This document shows, one piece after another, positions 37,191 to 46,063 of a DNA stretch of 64,000 nt (the stretch's first letter is position 1; every line of letters begins with the position of its first letter). The DNA is taken from the IMG/VR virus record IMGVR_UViG_3300021088_000005, positions 36,811-100,810 of that record; one strand, written 5' to 3'. The notes under the pieces were generated by a model that searched no databases, had not been told where the DNA came from, and saw only the letters and a program-made list of their open reading frames with translations. Source of the stretch: a virus. Position numbers and translations under genes: made by a program.

Positions 37191-38948
37191 TTATGAGCCA
37201 CTTGCGACTCCGTTGTGATCCAGAATATAAACTACATTGCCGCTGTTAGGAACGACTACGTGAACGATGTCTAGCAATGACGGGTTTGTGAATGCATCAG
37301 CGAACAACTGAGCAATTGTTGCCCCGCTGGTTAGGCGTGTGAAATACTGGCCTAGTCTGACCCCATTCGACGGAGTGAAGGACGCAGCAATGGTGGCGGT
37401 AGCAGCATGAGTTTCTGCTGTCTGCGTGGTCTCGGCTACAACTATGGTTGTGGCCGTGCTTGAGATTACAAGAACACTCGATACATTGTTGCCGCTGCTA
37501 GTGAAACCAGTAACTGTTATGAAACGACCAGCAAGACCGTTGGACGCACCGTTCGTTATGGTTCCGGTATATGTGGCCTTGTTGACTCCGGAGATACGAA
37601 CAGTTGCCGCATGCGTTTCAGCCGCTTGGCCCACTATGAAGGTACCAACCAAGGTTGTTGCTGTTGACGCCGTGATAACAAAGCTTACGTTGTTGCCGGA
37701 TGTTGTAAATCCGGCTACTGTCGCAGTAAAACCTACAAATGCGTTAGAAGCACCGCCTGTGATCGTTCCGGTGTAGGTGGTAAGTGATACCCCGGCTATC
37801 TCGGCAGTCGCAGCGTGAGTTTCGTCAACCTGAGTGTTCGGGGTAACCGTGATGGTTGTCGCAGTTGATGCAGTAATAGTGAATGTGCCGTTATTTCCAC
37901 CGTTCACGAAACCAGCGATTACAACCTGCTTACCAGCAAATGCGTTAGAAGCACCACCAGTAAATGTTCCGGTGTAGACACCTGTTGAACCGACAACAGA
38001 TGTGATTGTGAATGACGAAATAGCAACAGAGGTTAGCGCGAAGTCGTCTACCGCGACAGAAGTTAGCGGAGATGTAAACAAAGAACTGGTTGAGACATTG
38101 TGAACTGTTCCGATATTGTCAACCGAAACCAGGATGTCTCCGCCCTCTCCTACAATCTGAAGCAGGTCTAGGTTCTGTGGGCCAACACCGTTAGGGGTAA
38201 CTTGAGGATACGCAGATGGTACGCTTAAGCCGGGCTGAGACGCAATTAGCGCCTGAGCCACTCCGCCAGCAGTTGTTGGGGTGGCTGCGGAAGCAGGGGC
38301 TGTGATGTTTGTAGCTGTCGCGATAGTAACCGCGCCGCTAGACGTGACCAATCCTGCGAGAGCACGGCCCTTCAGGGTGCCGCCTCCCAATGTGATGCTA
38401 GTGTTGGCAAGAATATTACCAACCATGTTAGAAGTACCAGCAAAGATTGAAGTGAAGGAACTTCCTACTAGCCAAACCACGTTTGCAGCCTTAGCGCCAT
38501 TCACAAGCAATACAGACGCACCACTCTCTAAAGTAAGTGTAGAGCCTGCCTTAAAAATAAAAACAGCATTAGGGTTTCCCTGCGCATCTAGGGTAATAGA
38601 TGTCGGGATGTCCATTGATGATCCAGCGGAGTAATTGCCGGGTAGGTATGTGCTAGCCGTCCCGCCATTTCCTAGAGTAGATAGGTTGGCTGAAGACGCA
38701 GACAAAGATGTGAAGGAAAGTGCGGAGAAAGCGTTATAAGCAGTGAGGCCGTCTGCAATAGCTTGCGCGGCGTTTGGGGTATCAACTGCGGCAGGAGGAA
38801 TAAAGATCATCCCGTCCAAAGTATATGTCGCGGTTGGTGACGACCCGACATTGCCACCTGTGATGATGCTAGAGCCTGAGTTAGTAATACCAGCGCCTGC
38901 TAGAATGACATAATTAGCGGCGGTCAACAACTGAGACTGAATAGACAT
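37191..38948 (-). CDS. DUF3494 ice-binding domain protein with C-terminal repeats
   Basis: TAANYVILAGAGITNSG...ITLDAQGNPNAVFIFKAGSTL...NVVWLVGSS...GRALA, then three YTGTxTxGASN...GF...GNN...ETHAAT modules; SD AGGAG before ATG 38948. Confidence 0.85.
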   Translation of the reverse strand: MSIQSQLLTAANYVILAGAGITNSGSSIITGGNVGSSPTATYTLDGMIFIPPAAVDTPNAAQAIADGLTAYNAFSALSFTSLSASSANLSTLGNGGTASTYLPGNYSAGSSMDIPTSITLDAQGNPNAVFIFKAGSTLTLESGASVLLVNGAKAANVVWLVGSSFTSIFAGTSNMVGNILANTSITLGGGTLKGRALAGLVTSSGAVTIATATNITAPASAATPTTAGGVAQALIASQPGLSVPSAYPQVTPNGVGPQNLDLLQIVGEGGDILVSVDNIGTVHNVSTSSLFTSPLTSVAVDDFALTSVAISSFTITSVVGSTGVYTGTFTGGASNAFAGKQVVIAGFVNGGNNGTFTITASTATTITVTPNTQVDETHAATAEIAGVSLTTYTGTITGGASNAFVGFTATVAGFTTSGNNVSFVITASTATTLVGTFIVGQAAETHAATVRISGVNKATYTGTITNGASNGLAGRFITVTGFTSSGNNVSSVLVISSTATTIVVAETTQTAETHAATATIAASFTPSNGVRLGQYFTRLTSGATIAQLFADAFTNPSLLDIVHVVVPNSGNVVYILDHNGVASGS

Positions 38949-38964
38949 GATGCTCCTGAAATAC

Positions 38965-38993
38965 AAAAGCCGCCCAATCTAGGCGGCTTCTTT
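38965..38993 (-). terminator. Terminator ending the RNA array (possibly bidirectional)
   Basis: AAGCCGCC/GGCGGCTT stem with T tracts on both strands. Confidence 0.7.
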
Positions 38994-39006: not shown

Positions 39007-39085
39007 TGGTCGGGAAGGTGGGATTCGGACCCACGTGCTTTCGCTTCCGAAGCGAACGAGATAAGCCAAACTCCTCTACTTCCCG
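39007..39085 (-). tRNA. tRNA-Pro(CGG)
   Basis: TTCGC-TTCGGAA-GCGAA; CCA encoded; T-loop TCCGAAT. Confidence 0.85.
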
Positions 39086-39091
39086 TAAAAT

Positions 39092-39165
39092 TGGTCGGGG
39101 AACTGAGAATCGGACTCAGACCCTACGCTCCCAAAGCGTATGTGCTGCCATAACACTTCTCCCCG
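39092..39165 (-). tRNA. tRNA-Pro(TGG)
   Basis: TACGC-TTTGGGA-GCGTA; A8/U14; T-loop TCCGATT. Confidence 0.85.
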
Positions 39166-39171
39166 ATAAAA

Positions 39172-39936
39172 CTAAAAGAACGAAATTGTTTCTGCTTTCT
39201 CTGGATTAGCCGCGATGAACTTATCGACTGTATTATCCTGTAAGTCATTCAAGAAATCTAGAACACGGTCCGCCGGAGTCACTATATCGTAAGTACCGGA
39301 ATGGAAATCACCGACTGCAATACCGATTAGCGCACGTTCCTTAGCGCTGTAGATTCCGCTTCCACTAGACCCAGGCGCGATAGTCACGTCCATGGGCATT
39401 GTGTGAATCCAAAACGGATACTGCTCAATTATCTCTAGCGGCATGGCTAGGAATGCGGAAGACATGAATCGACCGTAGAATACCTGCTTGCCTGTGCCGT
39501 ACGGGAACGAAACATCAAATATCGGGTCGCCGGACTTTAATCCGCGTTCGTCTTTGATTCGAACTTCCGGGACGCCAGCGCCGTTCCTGATTAGCATCAA
39601 AGCTACATCGTCTGTCAAACTAATCGCAATAGGCATCGCGTCATAGAACGGTCCGCCCTCGTTATCTGAGAAGCTGACCTTCATGCTCTGATTGACGACA
39701 TTCGTGTCCGGGTCTGCTACGCAATGGCGTGCTGTCAAGAAAACACCGTCACCTGTCGAAGTGTGGCCGATTTCTGTGCCGCTGCAATTGAACCTGCGCT
39801 CAGCGCCTACGAATATGGCTCCGGTTGCTGCCCGAGCATCAATCTCGAACGGGTGCCGTGGTGCTCCACTAATCGCTAAGCCTGAGCCTAGGGCGAGTAG
39901 AACGGCTAAAGAAATCACTGCTAGCAACTTCTTCAT
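39172..39936 (-). CDS. Secreted trypsin-like serine protease
   Basis: Signal peptide; CSG, FLTARHC, DDVAL, APGSSGSG triad motifs. Confidence 0.85.
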   Translation of the reverse strand: MKKLLAVISLAVLLALGSGLAISGAPRHPFEIDARAATGAIFVGAERRFNCSGTEIGHTSTGDGVFLTARHCVADPDTNVVNQSMKVSFSDNEGGPFYDAMPIAISLTDDVALMLIRNGAGVPEVRIKDERGLKSGDPIFDVSFPYGTGKQVFYGRFMSSAFLAMPLEIIEQYPFWIHTMPMDVTIAPGSSGSGIYSAKERALIGIAVGDFHSGTYDIVTPADRVLDFLNDLQDNTVDKFIAANPEKAETISFF

Positions 39937-39961
39937 AGACTACCAACTCATTCGCAATACT

Positions 39962-40018
39962 TGGCGGAGCACTTATGCGAATGCATGCCGTTCGCTTATT
40001 GGAGCGAGCCTCTGCTCG
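39962..40018 (-). ncRNA. CCA-terminated tRNA-like small RNA (about 57 nt)
   Basis: GAGCA/TGCTC stem, two inner hairpins, ends GCCA. Confidence 0.45.
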
Positions 40019-40029
40019 GCTTGTAAAAA

Positions 40030-40104
40030 TGGCTGCGAGACTAGGACTCGAACCTAGATGCGCGGCTTCAGAGACCGCTATCCTACCAATTAGATGATCT
40101 CGCA
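40030..40104 (-). tRNA. tRNA-Gln(CTG)
   Basis: GCGGT-CTCTGAA-GCCGC; U1-A72; CCA. Confidence 0.9.
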
Positions 40105-40112
40105 ATAAATTT

Positions 40113-40176
40113 TGGAGGGTAGCCATTTCGTTCCCGCTAGGGCGAAGGGGTCGTTATCACTAGGGCAGTACTACCC
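40113..40176 (-). ncRNA. CCA-terminated small RNA (64 nt)
   Basis: GGGTAG/CTACCC terminal stem plus TCCA; no cloverleaf. Confidence 0.45.
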
Positions 40177-40222
40177 TGCTGTTGTTCCCTAATTACCTGA
40201 CCAACGATTTCACAGATCGAAC

Positions 40223-40298
40223 TGGTTGCCTCGACACGACTCGAACGTGTATAGCGGGATTCAAAGTCCCGCGTCCTACCAAATTAGACGACAAGGCA
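40223..40298 (-). tRNA. tRNA-Gln(TTG)
   Basis: CGGGA-CTTTGAA-TCCCG; CCA. Confidence 0.9.
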
Positions 40299-40304
40299 AT
40301 AAAA

Positions 40305-40376
40305 TGGAGCGAACTACTTACGGATTCGAACCGTCATCCGGTTGGCCTTCCGGATTACACCCTAGTGCGTGTTCGC
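40305..40376 (-). ncRNA. Atypical tRNA-like RNA (8-nt anticodon loop, 5-nt bulge between T arm and acceptor stem)
   Basis: GCGAAC/GTTCGC-TCCA; ATCCGG-AAGGCCAA-CCGGAT; ACGG-TTCGAAT-CCGT-AAGTA. Confidence 0.6.
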
Positions 40377-40382
40377 ATAAAC

Positions 40383-40459
40383 TGGACCAGCAAGTCAGAC
40401 TCGAACTGACTAAGAACAAGGTTGCAGCTTGTCGCCTCGACCGCTTCGGCATTTGCTGG
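40383..40459 (-). tRNA. tRNA-Cys(GCA)
   Basis: ACAAG-CTGCAAC-CTTGT; U73; CCA. Confidence 0.88.
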
Positions 40460-40460
40460 T

Positions 40461-40494
40461 TGGTCGCGGAACCGCCGTGAAGCTAAGTCCCACG
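40461..40494 (-). ncRNA. 34-nt ACCA-terminated minihelix 1
   Basis: CGTGGGAC-TTAGCTTCACGGCG-GTTCCGCG-ACCA. Confidence 0.55.
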
Positions 40495-40496
40495 AT

Positions 40497-40530
40497 TGGT
40501 GCCCCGCCAGGATTGCTCCGAAGCTAGGGC
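40497..40530 (-). ncRNA. 34-nt ACCA-terminated minihelix 2
   Basis: GCCCT-AGCTTC-GGA-GCAA-TCC-TGGC-GGGGC-ACCA. Confidence 0.55.
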
Positions 40531-40535
40531 ATAAA

Positions 40536-40622
40536 TGGCGGATGATGAAGGAATCGAACCCTCTTCACCTTTCGGTGAGGACAGTTTTCAAGACTGCTGC
40601 CCCCCATGGAGCCCAATCATCC
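40536..40622 (-). tRNA. tRNA-Ser(TGA)
   Basis: GCAGT-CTTGAAA-ACTGT; long variable arm; G73; short D arm. Confidence 0.82.
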
Positions 40623-40629
40623 GTAAAAA

Positions 40630-41145
40630 TTAAGTATGAAACACTGTAATCGGCAACCAAGCAACATGGATATCTACTTCAGTCCCGTTGACTGGTGCGG
40701 AACAAGTTGCGCTAACTCCTAGTCCGAATAGAGAAGACTGAACCGTGCTCCACAAAGACAATGGGTTAATTCCCCATAGATCAGTCGAACTACCAAGAGT
40801 ATAAAACTGTGGCTCGTTAGTTAAAGTAACATGTTTTCCGGTTCCGATTGGGTTGCCGTTCAAAGACATGGCAACATACAACTGACCGCTTCCGCCACCT
40901 GGCGAAGCATAGTACGCCCAGAATCCACCTTCAAGACCTGTTACACTCTGCTGCTCAGCTAATGTAAATCCGTATCGCTGACCGAAGACTGCTACCCCTG
41001 TGTTCTGACTACCGCCACTGAACTCTTTGTTCTGAGCGTAATCGCCTGGGGGCGATCCTACGAGACCACCGATATTAGTCCAGAGTACTTCATTACCGTT
41101 TGCGTACTGTACCGAATAGCCTGCGTATGCGCTTTCACTTGCCAT
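40630..41145 (-). CDS. Beta-rich hypothetical protein inside the RNA array
   Basis: SD GGAGG; YTLGSSTDLWG motif. Confidence 0.65.
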   Translation of the reverse strand: MASESAYAGYSVQYANGNEVLWTNIGGLVGSPPGDYAQNKEFSGGSQNTGVAVFGQRYGFTLAEQQSVTGLEGGFWAYYASPGGGSGQLYVAMSLNGNPIGTGKHVTLTNEPQFYTLGSSTDLWGINPLSLWSTVQSSLFGLGVSATCSAPVNGTEVDIHVAWLPITVFHT

Positions 41146-41174
41146 CTAGCCTCCGGCAATGCTAGTTAAAAATT

Positions 41175-41256
41175 TGGCGGAGAACCCCTTGCTAAGACTC
41201 CATGTCGCGTTTCCGCTGCAAGGTCCGCTGAAGCGTGTACCTGTTTAAGGTTCCCC
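41175..41256 (-). ncRNA. CCA-terminated branched RNA (82 nt) with G3-U70
   Basis: GGGGAACC/GGTTCTCC-GCCA; inner GCG-GAAA-CGC hairpin. Confidence 0.5.
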
Positions 41257-41279
41257 GGTCTTTCGACGGTTCTAATGTT

Positions 41280-41365
41280 TGGCGGAGAAGGAGGGACTTG
41301 AACCCCCACATCCTTTCGGATGCGAGTTTAGCAAACTCGTGCGTCTACCATTTCGCCACTTCTCC
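41280..41365 (-). tRNA. tRNA-Ser(GCT)
   Basis: CGAGT-TTGCTAA-ACTCG; long variable arm; CCA. Confidence 0.92.
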
Positions 41366-41374
41366 GTATTCAAC

Positions 41375-41666
41375 TGGTGACCAATAGCCAGGGTTCTGTC
41401 CAGCGCTTTCACGCTTGAACTGTCATTCGTCTTCGCTTCCAACCCGACCTTCGTCACGCTCAACAAGCGCTCTGGTCCTATTTGGAATTGCACCTACAGA
41501 GAGTCACTTCGCTCGAATGACCTATATGACGGTTGTTAAGTTTCTAATCGACCGCTATATGGGTACGAAGCCTTACTAGTCCGGTTACCCGGCCCGCAAC
41601 TTCCACGGTGTAGTGTTGAGATGTGCCCTGAACTTCCTCGGTTTCCCGCGACAGTTTAGGTCACCA
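41375..41666 (-). ncRNA. rnpB: RNase P RNA (type A-like, no P18, divergent S-domain)
   Basis: CR-I GAGGAAGTTCAGGGCAC and CR-V ACAGAACCCTGGCTA form P4 with bulged U; P1 TGGTGACC/GGTCACCA; P2 ACTGTCG/TGACAGT; P3; P5 GCAC/GTGC; P6 CTCAACA/TGTTGAG; P7 CTACA/TGTAG; P15 TTCC/GGAA; CR-IV AGACGAAT; P19. Confidence 0.9.
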
Positions 41667-41675
41667 AACTAAAAC

Positions 41676-41752
41676 TGGACGACCTGACTGGACTCGAACC
41701 AGCAAACATTTGTTTAGGAAACAAAGCCCCGATCCTTTCGGGGAACAGGTCG
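41676..41752 (-). tRNA. tRNA-Arg(CCT)
   Basis: TTTGT-TTCCTAA-ACAAA; CCA. Confidence 0.85.
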
Positions 41753-41756
41753 AAAC

Positions 41757-41831
41757 TGGAAGGCCGTAACGGAATCCAACCGTTGTCTCCCCGTTAGAAG
41801 CGGGGCGCATTTTGCACTATACTAACAGCCC
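41757..41831 (-). tRNA. tRNA-Arg(TCT)
   Basis: CCCCG-CTTCTAA-CGGGG; C19-G56. Confidence 0.85.
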
Positions 41832-41837
41832 ATAAAT

Positions 41838-41912
41838 TGGCAGGGGAAGAGAGATTCGAACTCCCATAACTGGTTTTGGAGACCAGAGTCCTAGCCGTTG
41901 GACGACTCCCCT
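41838..41912 (-). tRNA. tRNA-Trp(CCA)
   Basis: CTGGT-CTCCAAA-ACCAG; G73. Confidence 0.92.
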
Positions 41913-41917
41913 ATAAA

Positions 41918-42035
41918 CCTTTCCGATGTCACTTTCTCAGATCGCAGGCGCGTGACTGGCCGTGTCACAGTCCTTTGGGCTCGCGTGATCTGCTACGTTA
42001 GGCGATCATCGGTGCTAGTTTTCAAGGCTAGCAGG
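41918..42035 (-). ncRNA. Unknown structured RNA between tRNAs
   Basis: GCTAG/CTAGC, CCGATG/CATCGG, CAGATC/GATCTG, GTGAC/GTCAC stems. Confidence 0.45.
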
Positions 42036-42039
42036 AACT

Positions 42040-42113
42040 TGGAGCGACTGACGTGACTCGGACACGTTTCTCTGGATTGGAAGTCCAGGGCACAACCTAT
42101 ATACCACAGTCGC
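42040..42113 (-). tRNA. tRNA-Gly(TCC)
   Basis: CTGGA-CTTCCAA-TCCAG; U73; T-loop TCCGAGT. Confidence 0.88.
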
Positions 42114-42119
42114 AAAACT

Positions 42120-42194
42120 TGGAGCGGCTGACGGGAAATCGAACCCGTACCTGAACCTTGGCAAGGTTCCGTACTACCACTATACTACAGCCGC
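42120..42194 (-). tRNA. tRNA-Gly(GCC)
   Basis: GAACC-TTGCCAA-GGTTC; 8-nt T-loop. Confidence 0.9.
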
Positions 42195-42195
42195 A

Positions 42196-42271
42196 TGGTC
42201 GCTGTGGCTGGATTCGAACCAGCTATACCCGCCTTATGAGAGCGGTGCTTTTCCGGTTAAGCTACACAGCG
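42196..42271 (-). tRNA. tRNA(CAT), elongator Met or Ile2
   Basis: CCGCT-CTCATAA-GGCGG; paired 1-72. Confidence 0.85.
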
Positions 42272-42277
42272 TAAAAT

Positions 42278-42350
42278 TGGTTGCAGGGGTAGGAGTCGAA
42301 CCTACGTAAGCAAGTTTATGAGGCTTGCCTGAATCCCATTCTCCTCTGCA
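42278..42350 (-). tRNA. tRNA(CAT), possibly initiator-like, reduced D arm
   Basis: CTCATAA loop; TGCAG/CTGCA-ACCA; D arm GAAT-GGG-ATTC. Confidence 0.7.
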
Positions 42351-42358
42351 CAGAAATT

Positions 42359-42442
42359 TGGTGCGCGATGAGGGATTTGAACCCCCACGAGTTTCCCCAA
42401 TAGTTTCTAAGACTATCGTGTCTGCCGTTCCACCAATCGCGC
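42359..42442 (-). tRNA. tRNA-Leu(TAG)
   Basis: ATAGT-CTTAGAA-ACTAT; long variable arm. Confidence 0.92.
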
Positions 42443-42448
42443 AAAACT

Positions 42449-42524
42449 TGGTAGGGATGGAGAGATTCAAACTCTCGTCACTTGGCTTGAAGGGCCAGTA
42501 TCATTATCGCTAGACCACATCCCC
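42449..42524 (-). tRNA. tRNA-Glu(TTC)
   Basis: TGGC-CCTTCAA-GCCA; C33; A19-U56. Confidence 0.8.
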
Positions 42525-42530
42525 AAAACT

Positions 42531-42604
42531 TGGTCGCGCTGCGGGGAATCGGACCCCGGTTACACGGATGAGAACCGTGTGGCTTGCCACTAACCGACAA
42601 CGCG
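42531..42604 (-). tRNA. tRNA-Glu(CTC)
   Basis: CACGG-TTCTCAT-CCGTG; T-loop TCCGATT. Confidence 0.85.
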
Positions 42605-42605
42605 A

Positions 42606-42680
42606 TGGCGGAGATACCGGGGATCGGACCCGGACTTTACCCGTGACAGGGGTACGTCGTTACCAACTGACCCTATCTCC
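42606..42680 (-). tRNA. tRNA-Asp(GTC)
   Basis: TACCC-CTGTCAC-GGGTA; G73; T-loop TCCGATC. Confidence 0.85.
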
Positions 42681-42681
42681 G

Positions 42682-42755
42682 TGGAGCACCATAAAGGAAT
42701 CTAACCTTTTCTTCCGCTTTACCAAAGCGGTGGACTAACAATATCCTAATAGTGC
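42682..42755 (-). tRNA. tRNA-Thr(GGT)
   Basis: CCGCT-TTGGTAA-AGCGG; U19-A56. Confidence 0.85.
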
Positions 42756-42760
42756 GAAAC

Positions 42761-42834
42761 TGGAGCAGCGTCTGAGAATCGGACTCAGGCCAGCGGTTTA
42801 CGAAACCGCGATCATACCACTAGACCAACGCTGC
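42761..42834 (-). tRNA. tRNA-Thr(CGT)
   Basis: GCGGT-TTCGTAA-ACCGC; T-loop TCCGATT. Confidence 0.87.
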
Positions 42835-42839
42835 AAAAC

Positions 42840-42914
42840 TGGAGCACAATCGAGGAATCCAACCTCGGCTTCCGAGGTACAAGCTCGGCGTCATAGGCGC
42901 TAGACCAATCGTGC
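42840..42914 (-). tRNA. tRNA-Thr(TGT)
   Basis: CCGAG-CTTGTAC-CTCGG; C19-G56. Confidence 0.85.
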
Positions 42915-42920
42915 TTACAA

Positions 42921-43009
42921 AGGCTGGGGCAGCAGGATTCGAACCTGCAATGTGCTTACGCACTGTCTGGGTAACGGCCAGATGCTGTACCGGATTGAGC
43001 CACACCCCA
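42921..43009 (-). tRNA. tRNA-Asn(GTT) with long variable arm
   Basis: TCTGG-CCGTTAC-CCAGA; GTGC-GTAA-GCAC variable hairpin; G73; ends CCT. Confidence 0.78.
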
Positions 43010-43489
43010 ATAAAGTCTATCTTCTTCCTCTGCGTGGCAGTTAGCGCAGAGTAAATCACACTTATCTAATTCTAATTCTAATTTTACTTTTTCCCAGGCT
43101 ACAGTTTCTGGGCGCGATATAGCAAATTCTTTTTCTCCAGGTTCTCTATGATGAAATTGTAGTGCTCTTACACACTTACAGTACCCGCACTTCATGCACT
43201 TCCTGCCGAGATATTCAACAGCTCTCTGCTTTATATCTCTACGCCAGTCCATGACTCTTTTACTTACCGCTTTTCTCTTACGGTTAGCGGACTGTTCTTT
43301 CTTTATATTTCTGCACTCATCACTACAATAACTTAATACTGTCCGAATTGCCTTACCGCAAATCTTACAAGACCCTTCTGGTTTCCTCTTAGGAAAACGA
43401 TTGATATTGTTGTTCGCAGAATTGGCACACGTCTTAGAACAATATTTAGGATTGTCTGTGAGTACACCACATCCGTTACATGGGTGCAT
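42956..43489 (-). CDS. HNH endonuclease with Zn-finger repeats, 3' end overlaps tRNA-Asn
   Basis: CMKCGY...ALQFHH...KCDLLCANCHAEE. Confidence 0.88.
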   Translation of the reverse strand: MHPCNGCGVLTDNPKYCSKTCANSANNNINRFPKRKPEGSCKICGKAIRTVLSYCSDECRNIKKEQSANRKRKAVSKRVMDWRRDIKQRAVEYLGRKCMKCGYCKCVRALQFHHREPGEKEFAISRPETVAWEKVKLELELDKCDLLCANCHAEEEDRLYWGVAQSGTASGRYPDSA

Positions 43490-43522
43490 TCTAGTCTCCT
43501 AGTTTTAACTTCTAAACAAAAA

Positions 43523-43598
43523 TGGAGACCCTGGAGAGATTCCAACTCCCGACGCCCACGTTCGAAGCGTGGCGCTCTGTGCGCTGAGCTACAGGGTC
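43523..43598 (-). tRNA. tRNA-Arg(TCG)
   Basis: CCACG-CTTCGAA-CGTGG; C19-G56; A20. Confidence 0.87.
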
Positions 43599-43608
43599 AA
43601 ACTAATCA

Positions 43609-43764
43609 TCAGCGAGGAAACCTACGAATCAACTCCAACTGATGTGTTTCATCTTGGTACCAAACATGAGTGTCCATGTACTTCTTAGAATACCAAAGCA
43701 TAATAGGTAACGGGACCAACCAATAAATCCAAGGTCTCCATGACCAATATATTTTACTCTTCAT
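43609..43764 (-). CDS. Small Trp-rich membrane peptide
   Basis: MKSKIYWSWRPWIYWLVPLPIMLWY; ATG 3 nt after a tRNA CCA, no SD. Confidence 0.4.
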   Translation of the reverse strand: MKSKIYWSWRPWIYWLVPLPIMLWYSKKYMDTHVWYQDETHQLELIRRFPR

Positions 43765-43767
43765 ATC

Positions 43768-43843
43768 TGGTGATCCTATGTGGACTCGAACCACAGCATC
43801 GAGCTTCGCAGGCTCGCACTCTTTCCATCTGAGTTATAGGACC
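43768..43843 (-). tRNA. tRNA-Arg(GCG)
   Basis: CGAGC-CTGCGAA-GCTCG; A20. Confidence 0.88.
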
Positions 43844-43912
43844 ATAAACTTTTAGGGTTACGATCCCTCAACGGCTGCTTATTTCCGGTCTACAGCAAGA
43901 CGATCATTAAAC

Positions 43913-43987
43913 TGGTACGCCGCCGAGGAGTTGAACCTCGCTCTTCCGGGTGTAAACCGGGTGCATCTGCCGATCTGCCAGCAGCGT
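43913..43987 (-). tRNA. tRNA-Val(TAC)
   Basis: CCGG-TTTACAC-CCGG; A73. Confidence 0.85.
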
Positions 43988-43988
43988 A

Positions 43989-44052
43989 TGGTGGAGTCGG
44001 TGTGCCACGGTATCCCGGAAGGTTCTACCTTCTGTAGGTCTTGCCGTGCTCC
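43989..44052 (-). ncRNA. CCA-terminated small RNA (64 nt)
   Basis: GGAG/CTCC-ACCA, CACGG/CCGTG, GAAGGT/ACCTTC. Confidence 0.45.
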
Positions 44053-44138
44053 ATAATGTCCGGCGCGGATTGCATGTTGCTCCGCGTCGTCCGATGTGTC
44101 AGATAGTTCGTTGTATACTATCTCACACATCGTAAAAT

Positions 44139-44212
44139 TGGTGTAGGCGAAGGGAATCGAACCCTCAAATTCTCGGTGCAAGCGAGACAGTTTCCCGTTA
44201 GCTTACGCCCAC
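44139..44212 (-). tRNA. tRNA-Ala(TGC)
   Basis: TCTCG-CTTGCAC-CGAGA; G3-U70; A73. Confidence 0.9.
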
Positions 44213-44219
44213 ATAAAAT

Positions 44220-44293
44220 TGGTAGTCGGCCAGTGACTCGAACACTGATCTCACGTTAATCGGACGCGGGTCCTACCTTTGAACGAGCCGACT
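44220..44293 (-). tRNA. tRNA-Ile(GAT)
   Basis: CGCGT-CCGATTA-ACGTG; unusual C33 and U37. Confidence 0.78.
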
Positions 44294-44411
44294 ATAAACT
44301 TTACCGCTACACTTCTTCATATGAAACCAAAGAGCATCAGCCGGATTTATCTTGGCTGTTATCTCTTGCCCACATTTACTGCATCGAAGTACGCGTAGCT
44401 TTGACATAAAC

Positions 44412-44500
44412 TGGTGGAGAAGGAGTGAATCGAACACTCTACGTCTCAAGGACGGTTGGTTTTACAGACCAATGCGACTCTCCAACTTCGCCGCTTCTCC
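44412..44500 (-). tRNA. tRNA-Tyr(GTA)
   Basis: TTGGT-CTGTAAA-ACCAA; long variable arm. Confidence 0.9.
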
Positions 44501-44506
44501 AAAACT

Positions 44507-44582
44507 TGGTGGGACATGACGGGCTCGAACCGTCAACCGACTCCTTAAAAGGGAGCTATGTTGCCACTAACACCTATGTCCC
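44507..44582 (-). tRNA. tRNA-Lys(TTT)
   Basis: GCTCC-CTTTTAA-GGAGT; A8/U14. Confidence 0.88.
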
Positions 44583-44588
44583 GAAACT

Positions 44589-44663
44589 TGGTGCGCCTCC
44601 CGTGAATTAAACACGGTCCCGACGGGTTAAGAGCCCGCTGTGCTATCGTAACACCTGAAGCGC
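44589..44663 (-). tRNA. tRNA-Lys(CTT)
   Basis: GCGGG-CTCTTAA-CCCGT; A8/U14; A19-U56. Confidence 0.85.
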
Positions 44664-44673
44664 AAAACTTAAT

Positions 44674-44770
44674 AACCTGTGGAGGAATCGAACCTCTACT
44701 GACATTAGCGCGTAGACGTTATCGGTCAGCAAGCACCCGAGGTATCTACGTACCCGCCGTGCTCACGGTC
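44674..44770 (-). ncRNA. tRNA-shaped RNA with kissing loops, no CCA
   Basis: T arm GAGG-TTCGATT-CCTC; loops CGTAGA and TCTACG complementary. Confidence 0.55.
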
Positions 44771-44771
44771 T

Positions 44772-44858
44772 TGGTGCGCTGCCCCGGATTTGAACCGGGA
44801 CGGGGTTTAGTCCAGCGGGTTTTAAGTCCGCTATGTCTGCCTGTTCCATCAGCAGCGC
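44772..44858 (-). tRNA. tRNA-Leu(TAA)
   Basis: GCGG-ACTTAAAAC-CCGC; long variable arm. Confidence 0.9.
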
Positions 44859-44867
44859 AAAATCATA

Positions 44868-44936
44868 GATGGCGTCCTATCCGTTAGACGATACACGCCG
44901 ATAGCATGCACCGGGACTCGAACCCGGATTTCCACC
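44868..44936 (-). ncRNA. Circularly permuted, anticodon-less tRNA (YrlA Y-RNA-like)
   Basis: Order: GGTGG, AAAT, T arm, TGCATGC, TATCG loop, GCGTGTA, D arm, CCATC. Confidence 0.8.
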
Positions 44937-44941
44937 TTACT

Positions 44942-45035
44942 TGGTAGTCTCGAAGAGATTCGAACTCTTATCGCGCCCCAATCTAGGGCTTATCCAGTTT
45001 ATAAGGCTGGCGCTCTGCCGTTGAGCTACGAGACT
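44942..45035 (-). tRNA. tRNA-Ile(TAT) with long variable arm
   Basis: CCAG-CCTTATAAA-CTGG; GCCCT-AGATT-GGGGC variable hairpin; A73. Confidence 0.82.
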
Positions 45036-45041
45036 AAAATC

Positions 45042-45136
45042 TTGAACCTTCCCGAGCTTTACTAGCGTGACACTCGGTCTTGATTAACAAGTCGTGCCTT
45101 CCACGCTAGCGGTTGCACGATCAATGAACGGTTCAA
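45042..45136 (-). ncRNA. Unknown multi-stem RNA with 8-bp kissing loops
   Basis: TTGAACC/GGTTCAA; TCGTGC/GCACGA; CCGAG/CTCGG; loops CTAGCGTG/CACGCTAG. Confidence 0.6.
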
Positions 45137-45142
45137 ACTTGA

Positions 45143-45229
45143 TTCGGGACCCGGCATCAACCTTCCCAGGAAGTGCCACGTCGGTTAGAAGCTTGACACT
45201 TACTACCAACGTCGTCAAGGTTTCCCGAA
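45143..45229 (-). ncRNA. Unknown pseudoknotted RNA
   Basis: TTCGGGA/TCCCGAA; CTTGAC/GTCAAG; ACGTTGGT/ACCGACGT; GGCA/TGCC; CTTCC/GGAAG. Confidence 0.55.
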
Positions 45230-45232
45230 AAC

Positions 45233-45317
45233 TGGTGCGACAGAGGGGAGTTGAACCCCTATGAGACAAGCTCGGCGGTTTTTGAGACCGCTGCGTATGC
45301 CATTCCGCCACTATCGC
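45233..45317 (-). tRNA. tRNA-Leu(CAA)
   Basis: GCGGT-CTCAAAA-ACCGC; long variable arm. Confidence 0.92.
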
Positions 45318-45385
45318 ATAATCTTTAGGGCTCTTAGCCCAAGGTAAGACTTCATCCATGTAGGAGAAGCTTTCTTACCTAAACT

Positions 45386-45460
45386 TGGTCCGGACTCACG
45401 GAATTGAACCGCGTACGCCCACCTCTTCAGGGTGGCGCTCTACCGATGAGCTAAGCCCGG
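45386..45460 (-). tRNA. tRNA-Phe(GAA)
   Basis: CCACC-CTGAAGA-GGTGG. Confidence 0.9.
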
Positions 45461-45468
45461 ATAAAATA

Positions 45469-45639
45469 GTATTCATCGTGACAAACGTCTTAAGCCGGAT
45501 GCCTTCGTCACAACGGGTGACCAGCCATATAGAGTTCACGCCCCACCGGGGAATGACTCTAGTCTAAGCAAACTCACCAGATTGGCCTGCGCAAGCCTTA
45601 GCATCTCTCCGGCAAGAAGCAAGTCTCGATTACAAATAC
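45469..45639 (-). ncRNA. 6S RNA-like rod (about 170 nt)
   Basis: End-to-end hairpin ATCG/CGAT, GAC/GTC, TCTT/AAGA, GCCGGA/TCCGGC, central bubble, GGTGA/TCACC, TAGAGT/ACTCTA, CCCC/GGGG. Confidence 0.5.
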
Positions 45640-45668
45640 ATTGTACCACAACTTTCGAATCTTGTCAA
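45640..45668 (-). promoter_or_regulatory. Sigma70-type promoter for the RNA array
   Basis: TTGACA-17 nt-TACAAT with extended TG. Confidence 0.85.
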
Positions 45669-45987
45669 GCGATTTCTTCGACCATCTCAAGAAATATTTC
45701 CATCGCTTCGATCATTCTGCTGCGCCCAAACTCGTCAGCCAGGACATAAACCTCAGCGTCGGACATCTTGCTTGTTATGACTACGCCGTCTTCCAGGGAT
45801 GTCCACACCATCGGTTCCTCCACCCGCCTGGGGGTTGGACCCGGCGGACAGAATCTAATCCAGTGGCGGAGAAAGGATCGTAACCGCTACGCCGGACGCT
45901 CTTATGAGCACACTGGAAACTTTGGGTGGCTGATTGCGCTCTGACAGCCGAAGTTTCAGCGTATGTTTCAGCGTATGTTTCTAATTT

Positions 45988-46063
45988 TGGGGTGTCCCGC
46001 CGGAATCGGACCGAGCGCTACAGGATTCACAGTCCCGTGTGCTTCCATTACACCACGGACACC
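45988..46063 (-). tRNA. tRNA-His(GTG)
   Basis: CGGGA-CTGTGAA-TCCTG; G-1:C73; T-loop TCCGATT. Confidence 0.85.

What the first reader, a model, noticed from the sequence alone, without database searches (positions are those of the whole stretch)
41757..44663. Compensatory swaps of the near-invariant G19-C56 elbow pair in six tRNAs
Seen: Arg(TCT), Thr(TGT) and Arg(TCG) have D-loop GC with T-loop TTGGA (C19-G56). Thr(GGT) has GT with TTAGA (U19-A56). Glu(TTC) and Lys(CTT) have GA with TTT(G/A)A (A19-U56). Every change at 56 is matched at 19, which argues for selection rather than decay. Known: G19-C56 is the surface read by RNase P, T-box leaders and the L1 stalk. Inference: shape is kept while sequence changes to escape a host factor that reads the elbow or T-loop.
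Basis: partly seen in the sequence, partly recalled or inferred. Interest (0 to 1): 0.85.

Follow-up and report, generated by a model that had tools for sequence, protein, structure and literature searches.

The report
Phage tRNAs with swapped elbow pair
Six of this soil phage's 35 tRNA genes replace the almost universal G19-C56 corner pair by another matched pair; the swap is real and common in related phages, so the shape is kept while the letters change, for a reason not yet known.

Summary
Observation confirmed. The Rfam tRNA model puts the odd D-loop base at position 19 in all six tRNAs: C19-G56 in Arg-UCU, Thr-UGU and Arg-UCG; U19-A56 in Thr-GGU; A19-U56 in Glu-UUC and Lys-CUU. All 35 tRNAs of the array keep a Watson-Crick 19-56 pair (exact chance about 1e-8).

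Non-C56 T-loops make up 17% of this array. They make up about 1% of about 900-1,100 tRNAs (by caller) from 119 other phage arrays, and 0.3% of about 600 bacterial tRNAs.

Nine related soil-phage arrays, found through a neighbouring protein, show the same trait. All 22 non-C56 tRNAs scored in the ten arrays are compensated. tRNAs with the same anticodon sit in different states in different phages. Lys-CUU, for example, is A-U here, C-G in one relative and G-C in three.

So pairing is selected and base identity is not.

Seven more tRNAs here have C55, so 13 of 35 lack the UUC (T-psi-C) motif.

The escape idea is plausible but untested. A T-loop nuclease that needs U54 and U55 and targets a UUC motif (Cash, PMC13462974) fits better. 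Neutral compensatory drift remains a serious rival.

This scan has reported the same phenomenon on other phages. I found no paper that describes it.

The parts
41757..41831 (-). tRNA-Arg(UCU). D-loop AGUGCAAA, T-loop UUGGAUU. C19 (41814) pairs with G56 (41777).
   Evidence: (51.5 bits).
42452..42524 (-). tRNA-Glu(UUC). D-loop AGCGAUAA, T-loop UUUGAAU. A19 (42507) pairs with U56 (42469). Also has C33 and a C.A mismatch at 27-43.
   Evidence: (52.8 bits). Missed by ARAGORN. Lies wholly inside an exact contig of two RNA libraries.
42682..42755 (-). tRNA-Thr(GGU). D-loop AUUGUUA, T-loop UUAGAUU. U19 (42738) pairs with A56 (42702).
   Evidence: (57 bits).
42840..42914 (-). tRNA-Thr(UGU). D-loop AGCGCCUA, T-loop UUGGAUU. 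C19 (42897) pairs with G56 (42860).
   Evidence: (51.7 bits). Lies wholly inside an exact RNA-library contig.
43523..43598 (-). tRNA-Arg(UCG). D-loop AGCGCACA, T-loop UUGGAAU. C19 (43581) pairs with G56 (43543). The same loops occur in the Arg-UCG of L291 and the Arg-UCU of L307.
   Evidence: (56.1 bits).
44592..44663 (-). tRNA-Lys(CUU). D-loop UACGAUA, T-loop UUUAAUU. A19 (44646) pairs with U56 (44609). Also has A8-U14 in place of U8-A14.
   Evidence: (45.1 bits). Missed by ARAGORN.
39007..46062 (-). The whole array of 35 tRNA genes, covering all 20 amino acids. 29 have G19-C56. Seven have C55 (T-loop UCCGA): Pro-CGG, Pro-UGG, Gly-UCC, Glu-CUC, Asp-GUC, Thr-CGU and His-GUG.
41370..41667 (-). 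Shortened RNase P RNA-like gene inside the array, 90 nt downstream of Arg-UCU. This is context only, since the elbow is what the specificity domain of RNase P docks on. It is the subject of another report of this scan.
   Evidence: 72.7 bits, E 6e-22, below the cut-off of 100. Found at the same syntenic place in relatives.

Best explanation
Shown: these are working members of the phage's own tRNA set, and the tertiary pair that locks the D-loop to the T-loop has been rewritten by matched changes on both sides. Across this lineage of soil phages only the pairing of 19-56 is under selection, not the identity of the bases. The same holds for 8-14; for 18-55 the only matched change seen is A18 with G55. 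A Watson-Crick swap keeps the flat stacking platform of the elbow. Folding, RNase P docking and ribosome contacts should therefore still work.

Inferred, about 45%: what the swap changes is the letters at T-loop positions 55 and 56. Together with the seven C55 tRNAs, 13 of 35 tRNAs no longer show the U54-U55-C56 (T-psi-C) motif. The most likely benefit is that these tRNAs are poor substrates for host proteins that read that sequence. The prime candidate is a T-loop-cutting defence nuclease of the Schlafen/Cash kind. TruB and TrmA are further candidates.

For: - **Position 19.** The Rfam model fixes position 19 in all six tRNAs.
- **Pairing.** All 35 pairs are Watson-Crick, exact chance 1e-8.
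- **Relatives.** 22 of 22 non-C56 tRNAs in ten related arrays are compensated, against 0 of 22 and 5 of 22 when the register is shifted. In the gapless alignment none is unpaired.
- **Function.** Cloverleaf scores are 45-57 bits. CCA ends are encoded. There is one gene per anticodon. The codons they read are much used by the phage: AAG is 72% of Lys, GAA 55% of Glu, ACA 32% of Thr.
- **Enrichment.** Non-C56 is 6 of 33 here by my scanner. It is 8-12 of 897 in 119 other phage arrays and 2 of 589 in bacterial loci. Fisher p is 2e-5 to 4e-7. C55 is 7 of 33 here against 15 of 897.
- **Where the variation sits.** In all 35 tRNAs of the window, G18, T54, A58 and G53-C61 never change; only 55 and 56 do.
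- **Kinds of swap.** C-G and U-A swaps have no wobble intermediate. They are as common in the lineage as A-U (6, 6 and 10). In the other phage arrays only A-U is seen.
- **A nuclease that fits.** CbCash cuts 5' of U55, is abolished by single U54 or U55 mutations and targets a UUC motif (PMC13462974).
Against: - 22 of the 35 tRNAs keep UUC, among them every decoder for 12 amino acids. A general T-loop nuclease would still stop translation.
- Within same-anticodon families 19-56 differs in 23% of comparisons, against 26-70% for helix pairs. There is no sign of accelerated change.
- The host is unknown, so no T-loop nuclease can be tied to it.
- No cleavage, modification or charging data exist.
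- RNA-library contigs cover only parts of the array, and I could not lay a silent-stretch control.
Confidence: 0.45

Rival explanations
1. Neutral compensatory drift. In this phage lineage the constraint on which bases form the elbow pairs is relaxed. The tRNAs act only briefly and in excess, and the phage may mature them with its own RNase P RNA. The pairs then wander among Watson-Crick states as helix pairs do, with no benefit from the new letters.
For: - The pair changes more slowly than ordinary helix pairs, not faster: 23% against 26-70%.
- Swaps are spread over at least 13 anticodon families with no clear pattern.
- 8-14 also swaps, and G55 always comes with A18, as expected from a general loosening.
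- A low background of A19-U56 exists in other phages.
- Every array of the lineage carries a reduced RNase P RNA-like gene.
Against: - Drift alone does not explain why this lineage has 7-17% non-C56 tRNAs and other phage arrays about 1%.
- One array with an RNase P RNA-like gene (L072) has no swap.
- C-G and U-A swaps need two changes with no viable intermediate, yet they are common.
- C55 is uncompensated, loses the universal psi55, and still occurs seven times in the window.
- From my own knowledge, RNase P stacks on the pair, so the host enzyme should not have constrained base identity in the first place.
Confidence: 0.38
2. Inherited from the host. The swapped elbows were copied from host tRNA genes that already had them, for example tRNA-Arg of some bacterial lineages, and say nothing about phage biology.
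For: - tRNA-Arg is over-represented among swapped tRNAs: two in the window, plus L012, L036, L091, L116, L118 and L267.
- The only two swapped tRNAs in the bacterial sample are Arg-CCU and Arg-CCG, on a contig binned to an Acidobacteriales MAG.
Against: - That contig is 4,973 bp long with 13 CCA-encoding tRNAs, so it looks like a phage array rather than host DNA.
- The other Acidobacteriota loci in the sample have C56 throughout.
- Same-anticodon tRNAs differ in state between closely related phages, so the changes happened within the phage lineage.
Confidence: 0.07
3. Not decoders. The six are tRNA-like decoys or regulators, or decaying pseudogenes, rather than tRNAs used in translation.
For: - Glu-UUC has further oddities: C33, a C.A mismatch at 27-43 and G1.U72.
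- The array also holds non-tRNA elements: minihelices and a permuted tRNA (notes), and a tRNA-like gene without a D-arm at 42281-42350.
Against: - Five of the six have normal anticodon loops and stems.
- Each is the only gene for its anticodon in a set that covers all 20 amino acids.
- Decay would not produce perfectly matched double changes 22 times out of 22.
Confidence: 0.06

Closest known systems
Canonical bacterial and phage elongator tRNA (Rfam RF00005) with the elbow contacts G18-psi55, G19-C56 and T54-A58 (reviewed in PMC7912444)
   Same: Cloverleaf, loop sizes, G18, T54-A58, G53-C61, R57 and an encoded CCA end. The 19-56 contact is still a Watson-Crick pair.
   Different: The bases of the pair are C-G, U-A or A-U, not the G-C described as virtually universal (PMC4117946, PMC7912444). 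Seven sister tRNAs have C55.
Phage tRNAs that evade host tRNA nucleases through changed anticodon loops (PMC10264068), the viral tRNA that neutralises PARIS (title of PMC11464382), and phage tRNAs that let phages evade retrons (abstract of PMC11555353)
   Same: Phage-encoded copies of tRNAs whose sequence differs at a site a host factor could read, while the tRNA stays usable.
   Different: Here the changed site is the T-loop/D-loop elbow, not the anticodon arm or variable loop. PMC10264068 does not mention the T-loop, D-loop or elbow. Resistance has not been tested here.
Cash, a CRISPR-associated prokaryotic Schlafen nuclease that cuts tRNA T-loops (PMC13462974)
   Same: It cuts 5' of U55. 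Single U54 or U55 mutations abolish cleavage, and it targets a UUC motif. These are the letters altered in 13 of the 35 tRNAs.
   Different: It is only a candidate selective agent. No such gene is tied to this phage's unknown host, and 22 tRNAs of the array still carry UUC.
Animal mitochondrial tRNAs with variable or missing elbow contacts (PMC2777451, PMC4394434)
   Same: They depart from G19-C56.
   Different: Mitochondrial tRNAs change loop sizes and often lose the contact. Here loop sizes are normal and the pair is always kept.

Membership tests
Elongator tRNA (Rfam RF00005) | Cloverleaf that scores above the family cut-off of 29 bits | tested here: met
   The six score 45.1-57 bits.
Elongator tRNA (Rfam RF00005) | Seven-base anticodon loop with U33 and a purine at 37 | tested here: met
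   Met in five. Glu-UUC has C33.
Elongator tRNA (Rfam RF00005) | T-loop frame: T54, A58, G53-C61, R57 and G18 | tested here: met
   Unchanged in all 35 tRNAs of the window.
Elongator tRNA (Rfam RF00005) | G19-C56 as the bases of the elbow pair | tested here: not met
   C-G three times, U-A once, A-U twice. The contact itself is kept as a Watson-Crick pair.
Elongator tRNA (Rfam RF00005) | Processed, charged and used on the ribosome | not testable with these tools
   The only data are exact contigs in soil RNA libraries that cover Glu-UUC and Thr-UGU. I could not lay a silent-stretch control.
Phage anti-defence tRNAs (nuclease-resistant variants) | Sequence change at the site a host tRNA nuclease recognises | tested here: inconclusive
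   The changes sit at 55 and 56, within the UUC motif that CbCash targets. No nuclease of the host is known.
Phage anti-defence tRNAs (nuclease-resistant variants) | Demonstrated resistance to cleavage, and rescue of infection | not testable with these tools
   Needs bench work.
Mitochondrial-type reduced tRNAs | Shrunken or missing D- or T-loops with loss of the elbow contact | tested here: not met
   D-loops are 7-8 nt, T-loops 7 nt, and the pair is always present.

The most novel reading that the evidence does not exclude
A lineage of soil phages runs a partly private tRNA system. It has its own reduced RNase P ribozyme. A large share of its tRNAs have had the T-psi-C letters erased by pair-preserving (19-56, 18-55) or unpaired (C55) changes. 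Those tRNAs would be invisible to host T-loop-directed nucleases and modification enzymes while still working on the host ribosome. That would be a second, structural route of tRNA-based counter-defence, beside the known anticodon-loop route.
Probability: 0.2. Interest if true: 0.8.

Novelty: new variant of a known kind. Interest (0 to 1): 0.55.

Why it matters
G19-C56 is treated as nearly invariant in cytoplasmic tRNAs, and single changes there inactivate a yeast tRNA (PMC4117946). Here natural tRNA sets use all four Watson-Crick versions of the pair, and relatives switch between them. That gives a natural experiment on what the elbow bases are needed for beyond pairing.

If the driver is evasion of T-loop-cutting defence nucleases, the known phage tRNA counter-defence would extend from the anticodon loop to the elbow, and the idea can be tested directly with wild-type and reverted transcripts. 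If the driver is drift, the data show that elbow base identity is dispensable for translation in bacteria. That is useful for designing orthogonal tRNAs.

Tried and rejected
- **Cultured phages.** Near and distant DNA searches of cultured phage records gave nothing useful. The closest cultured relative by terminase is Tunturiibacter phage Tunturi_3 at 25% identity. It has only 3 tRNAs.
- **Relatives by single proteins.** Scans of viral contigs with two proteins from inside the array found no relatives.
- Relatives were reached instead through an alignment of the neighbouring DUF3494 protein.
- **T-arm 15-mer.** An exact T-arm 15-mer search returned mostly chance coding hits. Only L012 had it inside a tRNA.
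- **My covariance model R1.** It aligned D-loops inconsistently, so I did not use it to read position 19. I used it only to check that ARAGORN and the model find similar numbers: 281 against 282 in 30 loci.
- **RNase P link.** Arrays with an RNase P RNA-like gene have more swaps, but almost all belong to one lineage. I do not count this as evidence.
- **RNA libraries.** Four soil metatranscriptome runs hold exact pieces of the array. With only one read-laying run I could not lay a silent control, so this is only a weak hint of transcription. Parts without cover mean nothing.
- **Phage genes.** The phage genome has no RtcB, RNA ligase, CCA-adding enzyme or TruB.
- **Host.** Not identified. Acidobacteriota is only a lead.
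- **Recent duplication.** Rejected as the source of the six genes: pairwise identity is at most 0.67, which is background level.
Full report
**What is there.** The window is the right-hand 64 kb of a 100,810-bp uncultured virus record that is about 95% complete. It has no near relative among cultured phages. The best terminase match is a Tunturiibacter (Acidobacteriota) soil phage at 25% identity. On the minus strand between 39007 and 46062 lie 35 tRNA genes for all 20 amino acids. Among them are a few ORFs, an HNH endonuclease gene and a shortened RNase P RNA-like gene at 41370-41667.

**Check of the observation.** I aligned the tRNAs to the Rfam tRNA model, which knows nothing about the 19-56 tertiary pair. 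In all six named tRNAs a G falls in the G18 column, the next base in the G19 column and the third T-loop base in the C56 column.

| tRNA | 19-56 pair |
|---|---|
| Arg-UCU, Thr-UGU, Arg-UCG | C19-G56 |
| Thr-GGU | U19-A56 |
| Glu-UUC, Lys-CUU | A19-U56 |

ARAGORN misses the last two; Rfam scores them 52.8 and 45.1 bits. The other 29 tRNAs have GG and C56. If the observed 56 letters were dealt at random over the 35 tRNAs, all pairs would be Watson-Crick with probability 1.0e-8. The six genes are not recent copies of each other: identity is at most 0.67, which is background level. The three pair types need at least three separate double changes.

**Is it unusual?** I wrote a cloverleaf scanner that requires the stems, T54, A58 and G53-C61 but ignores 55, 56 and the D-loop. 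It recovers 33 of the 35 window tRNAs, including the two that ARAGORN misses, with no hit on the reversed window.

I applied it to 119 IMG/VR loci and 120 bacterial loci. Both sets were picked by the same neutral pattern, two neighbouring canonical T-arms.

| Set | tRNAs | Non-C56 | C55 |
|---|---|---|---|
| Other phage arrays | 897 | 8 U56, plus 4 low-score hits that look false | 15 |
| Bacterial loci | 589 | 2 credible (two low-score hits look false) | 3 |
| This window | 33 | 6 | 7 |

All eight U56 tRNAs in the other phages have GA in the D-loop, which is A19-U56. The two bacterial cases sit on one 5-kb contig with 13 tRNAs that looks like a phage array. ARAGORN gives the same picture. It finds about as many tRNAs as a covariance model does. 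The window differs from both samples with Fisher p of 2e-5 or less.

**Relatives.** The 591-aa DUF3494 (ice-binding-like) protein next to the array has homologues at 62-75% identity. An alignment of them led to 78 viral loci. Nine of these carry arrays with a similar gene order; L291 follows the window's order most closely. All nine have the RNase P RNA-like gene except L293, where my motif search found none.

My scanner tRNAs in the ten arrays. Nine of these have G55 and are treated separately below. For the rest, the T-loop-blind rule for position 19 gives:

- GC 178, AU 10, CG 6, UA 6;
- four apparent mismatches, all with C56; three are class II Leu-UAG genes, where my D-loop parse is unreliable.

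All 22 non-C56 tRNAs are Watson-Crick. Shifting the register by -1 gives 0 of 22, and by +1 gives 5 of 22. With ARAGORN added, the relatives have about 17 non-C56 tRNAs in 231, or 7%. A gapless alignment of 40 seventy-base tRNAs gives 19-56 as GC 34, AU 4, UA 2 with none unpaired. It gives 8-14 as UA 36, AU 4, and 18-55 as GU 35, GC 5.

**States differ between relatives.** tRNAs with the same anticodon, often at the same place in the array, carry different pairs.

| tRNA | State in each array |
|---|---|
| Lys-CUU | A-U here; C-G in L291; G-C in L306, L307, L310 |
| Glu-CUC | G-C with C55 here; U-A in L291; A-U in L292; G-C in L307, L310 |
| Glu-UUC | A-U here and in L292, L307, L310; G-C in L290, L291, L306 |
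| Arg-ACG | G-C, A-U, U-A or A18-G55, depending on the phage |
| Arg-UCG | the same C-G loops here and in L291 |
| Thr-UGU, Thr-GGU | swapped only here |

So the changes arose within the phage lineage, more than once, and always in matched form. G55 always comes with A18: nine cases in the lineage and more in other phages. Within same-anticodon families 19-56 differs in 23% of pairwise comparisons and helix pairs in 26-70%. The elbow pair is therefore far freer than in cells, but it does not change faster than nearly all ordinary helix pairs.

**Are they working tRNAs?**
- Each of the six is the only gene for its anticodon.
- Five have normal anticodon loops.
- CCA ends are encoded.
- Both Arg tRNAs have an A at position 20. 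From my own knowledge, A20 is an identity element for E. coli ArgRS.
- Both Thr tRNAs have G1-C72 and C2-G71.
- The codons they read are heavily used by the phage: AAG 72% of Lys, GAA 55% of Glu, ACA 32% and ACC+ACU 55% of Thr, AGA 18% and CGA 13% of Arg.
- Four soil metatranscriptome runs hold exact contigs over parts of the array. One contig covers Glu-UUC whole and another covers Thr-UGU whole, with no differing letters. The RNase P RNA is covered most deeply. I could not lay a silent control, so this is only a weak hint of transcription.
- The phage encodes no RtcB, RNA ligase, CCA-adding enzyme or TruB.

**How it most likely works.** Shown: pairing is selected and base identity is not. 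A Watson-Crick swap keeps the stacking face of the elbow. That face is what RNase P, the L1 stalk and T-box leaders use (my own knowledge of the structures), so these are unlikely to be the factors being evaded.

What does change is the letters at positions 55 and 56. In all 35 tRNAs of the window G18, T54, A58 and G53-C61 never vary. Position 55 is changed in seven tRNAs and position 56 in six, so 13 of 35 lack UUC. A defence nuclease with the matching requirement exists. CbCash cuts 5' of U55, is abolished by single U54 or U55 mutations and targets a UUC motif (PMC13462974). From my own knowledge, TruB and TrmA also read these bases.

I therefore lean, at about 45%, to avoidance of T-loop sequence readers. 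Neutral compensatory drift under a lineage-specific relaxation of constraint is a serious rival at about 38%. In its favour:
- 22 tRNAs keep UUC;
- the pair changes more slowly than nearly all helix pairs;
- 8-14 swaps too, and 18-55 changes to A18-G55.

Inheritance from host tRNAs and a non-decoding role are less likely.

**Compared with what is known.** Reviews and mutational work treat G18, G19, U55 and C56 as virtually universal, and single changes there as inactivating (PMC7912444, PMC4117946). Published phage tRNA counter-defence concerns the anticodon loop. The key paper does not mention the T-loop, D-loop or elbow (PMC10264068). Full-text searches for swapped 19-56 pairs in phages found nothing.

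This scan has already reported the same phenomenon in several other phage arrays, so this window is one more instance. What this window adds is a set of close relatives in which the state of the pair can be followed from phage to phage. I class it as a new variant of a known kind.

Noticed in passing
window 39007-39085, 39092-39165, 42040-42113, 42531-42604, 42606-42680, 42761-42834, 45988-46062 (minus strand): Seven tRNAs have the T-loop UCCGA, with C55 in place of the near-universal U55 (psi55), while G18 is kept. They are Pro-CGG, Pro-UGG, Gly-UCC, Glu-CUC, Asp-GUC, Thr-CGU and His-GUG. C55 is 1.7% in other phage arrays and 0.5% in the bacterial sample.
   Followed up: partly
L289, L290, L293, L306, L307, L012 and baseline loci L055, L074, L091, L101, L104, L127, L134, L189: T-loops with G55 (UGC) always come with AG instead of GG in the D-loop, an A18-G55 covariation of the second elbow contact. 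One tRNA (L291 Leu-UAG) has both A18-G55 and C19-G56.
   Followed up: partly
window 39092-39165, 44507-44582, 44592-44663 (minus strand): Pro-UGG, Lys-UUU and Lys-CUU have A8 and U14 in place of U8-A14, a swap of another tertiary pair. In the gapless alignment 8-14 is UA 36, AU 4, with none unpaired.
   Followed up: partly
window 42452-42524, 44220-44293, 42922-43009 (minus strand): Glu-UUC, Ile-GAU and Asn-GUU have C33 in place of the near-universal U33. Ile-GAU also has U37. A Glu-UUC with the same CCUUCAA loop sits on contig L267.
   Followed up: no
window 41370-41667 (minus strand): Shortened RNase P RNA-like gene inside the array (72.7 bits, E 6e-22). Of all parts of the array it has the deepest cover in three soil RNA libraries. 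RNase P RNA-like genes also occur in eight of the nine related arrays (none found in L293), in L012 and in L072. It is already the subject of another report of this scan.
   Followed up: partly
window 42922-43009 and 42956-43489 (minus strand): The 3' end of the HNH endonuclease ORF runs about 54 nt into the 5' part of the tRNA-Asn gene. That tRNA has an unusual 17-nt insert in the variable region, where the ORF's stop codon lies.
   Followed up: no
window 44942-45035 (minus strand): tRNA-Ile(UAU) is 91-94 nt long, with a 24-nt insert at the variable region. Related arrays have similar long Ile-UAU genes.
   Followed up: no
window 42281-42350 (minus strand): A tRNA-like gene with a CAU anticodon loop and normal acceptor, anticodon and T arms, but 13 nt in place of the D-arm (26.3 bits, below the cut-off).
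   Followed up: no
window 42120-42194 (minus strand): tRNA-Gly(GCC) has an eight-base T-loop (UUCGAUUU). Even so, it is the best-scoring tRNA of the array.
   Followed up: no
window 41600-44800 (minus strand), after most tRNAs: Most tRNAs end in an encoded CCA followed by a similar short trailer, (A)GUUU(U), before the next gene. It may be a processing signal.
   Followed up: no
L267 (JAICSO010000104.1, 4,973 bp, binned to an Acidobacteriales MAG): A 5-kb contig with 13 CCA-encoding tRNAs. It includes Arg-CCU with C19-G56 and Arg-CCG with A19-U56. It looks like a phage array placed in a bacterial bin, and is a lead to the host phylum.
   Followed up: partly
window 37191-38966 (minus strand): The protein next to the array carries a DUF3494 (ice-binding-like, PF11999) domain. 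It has hundreds of relatives in soil and peat virus contigs.
   Followed up: no
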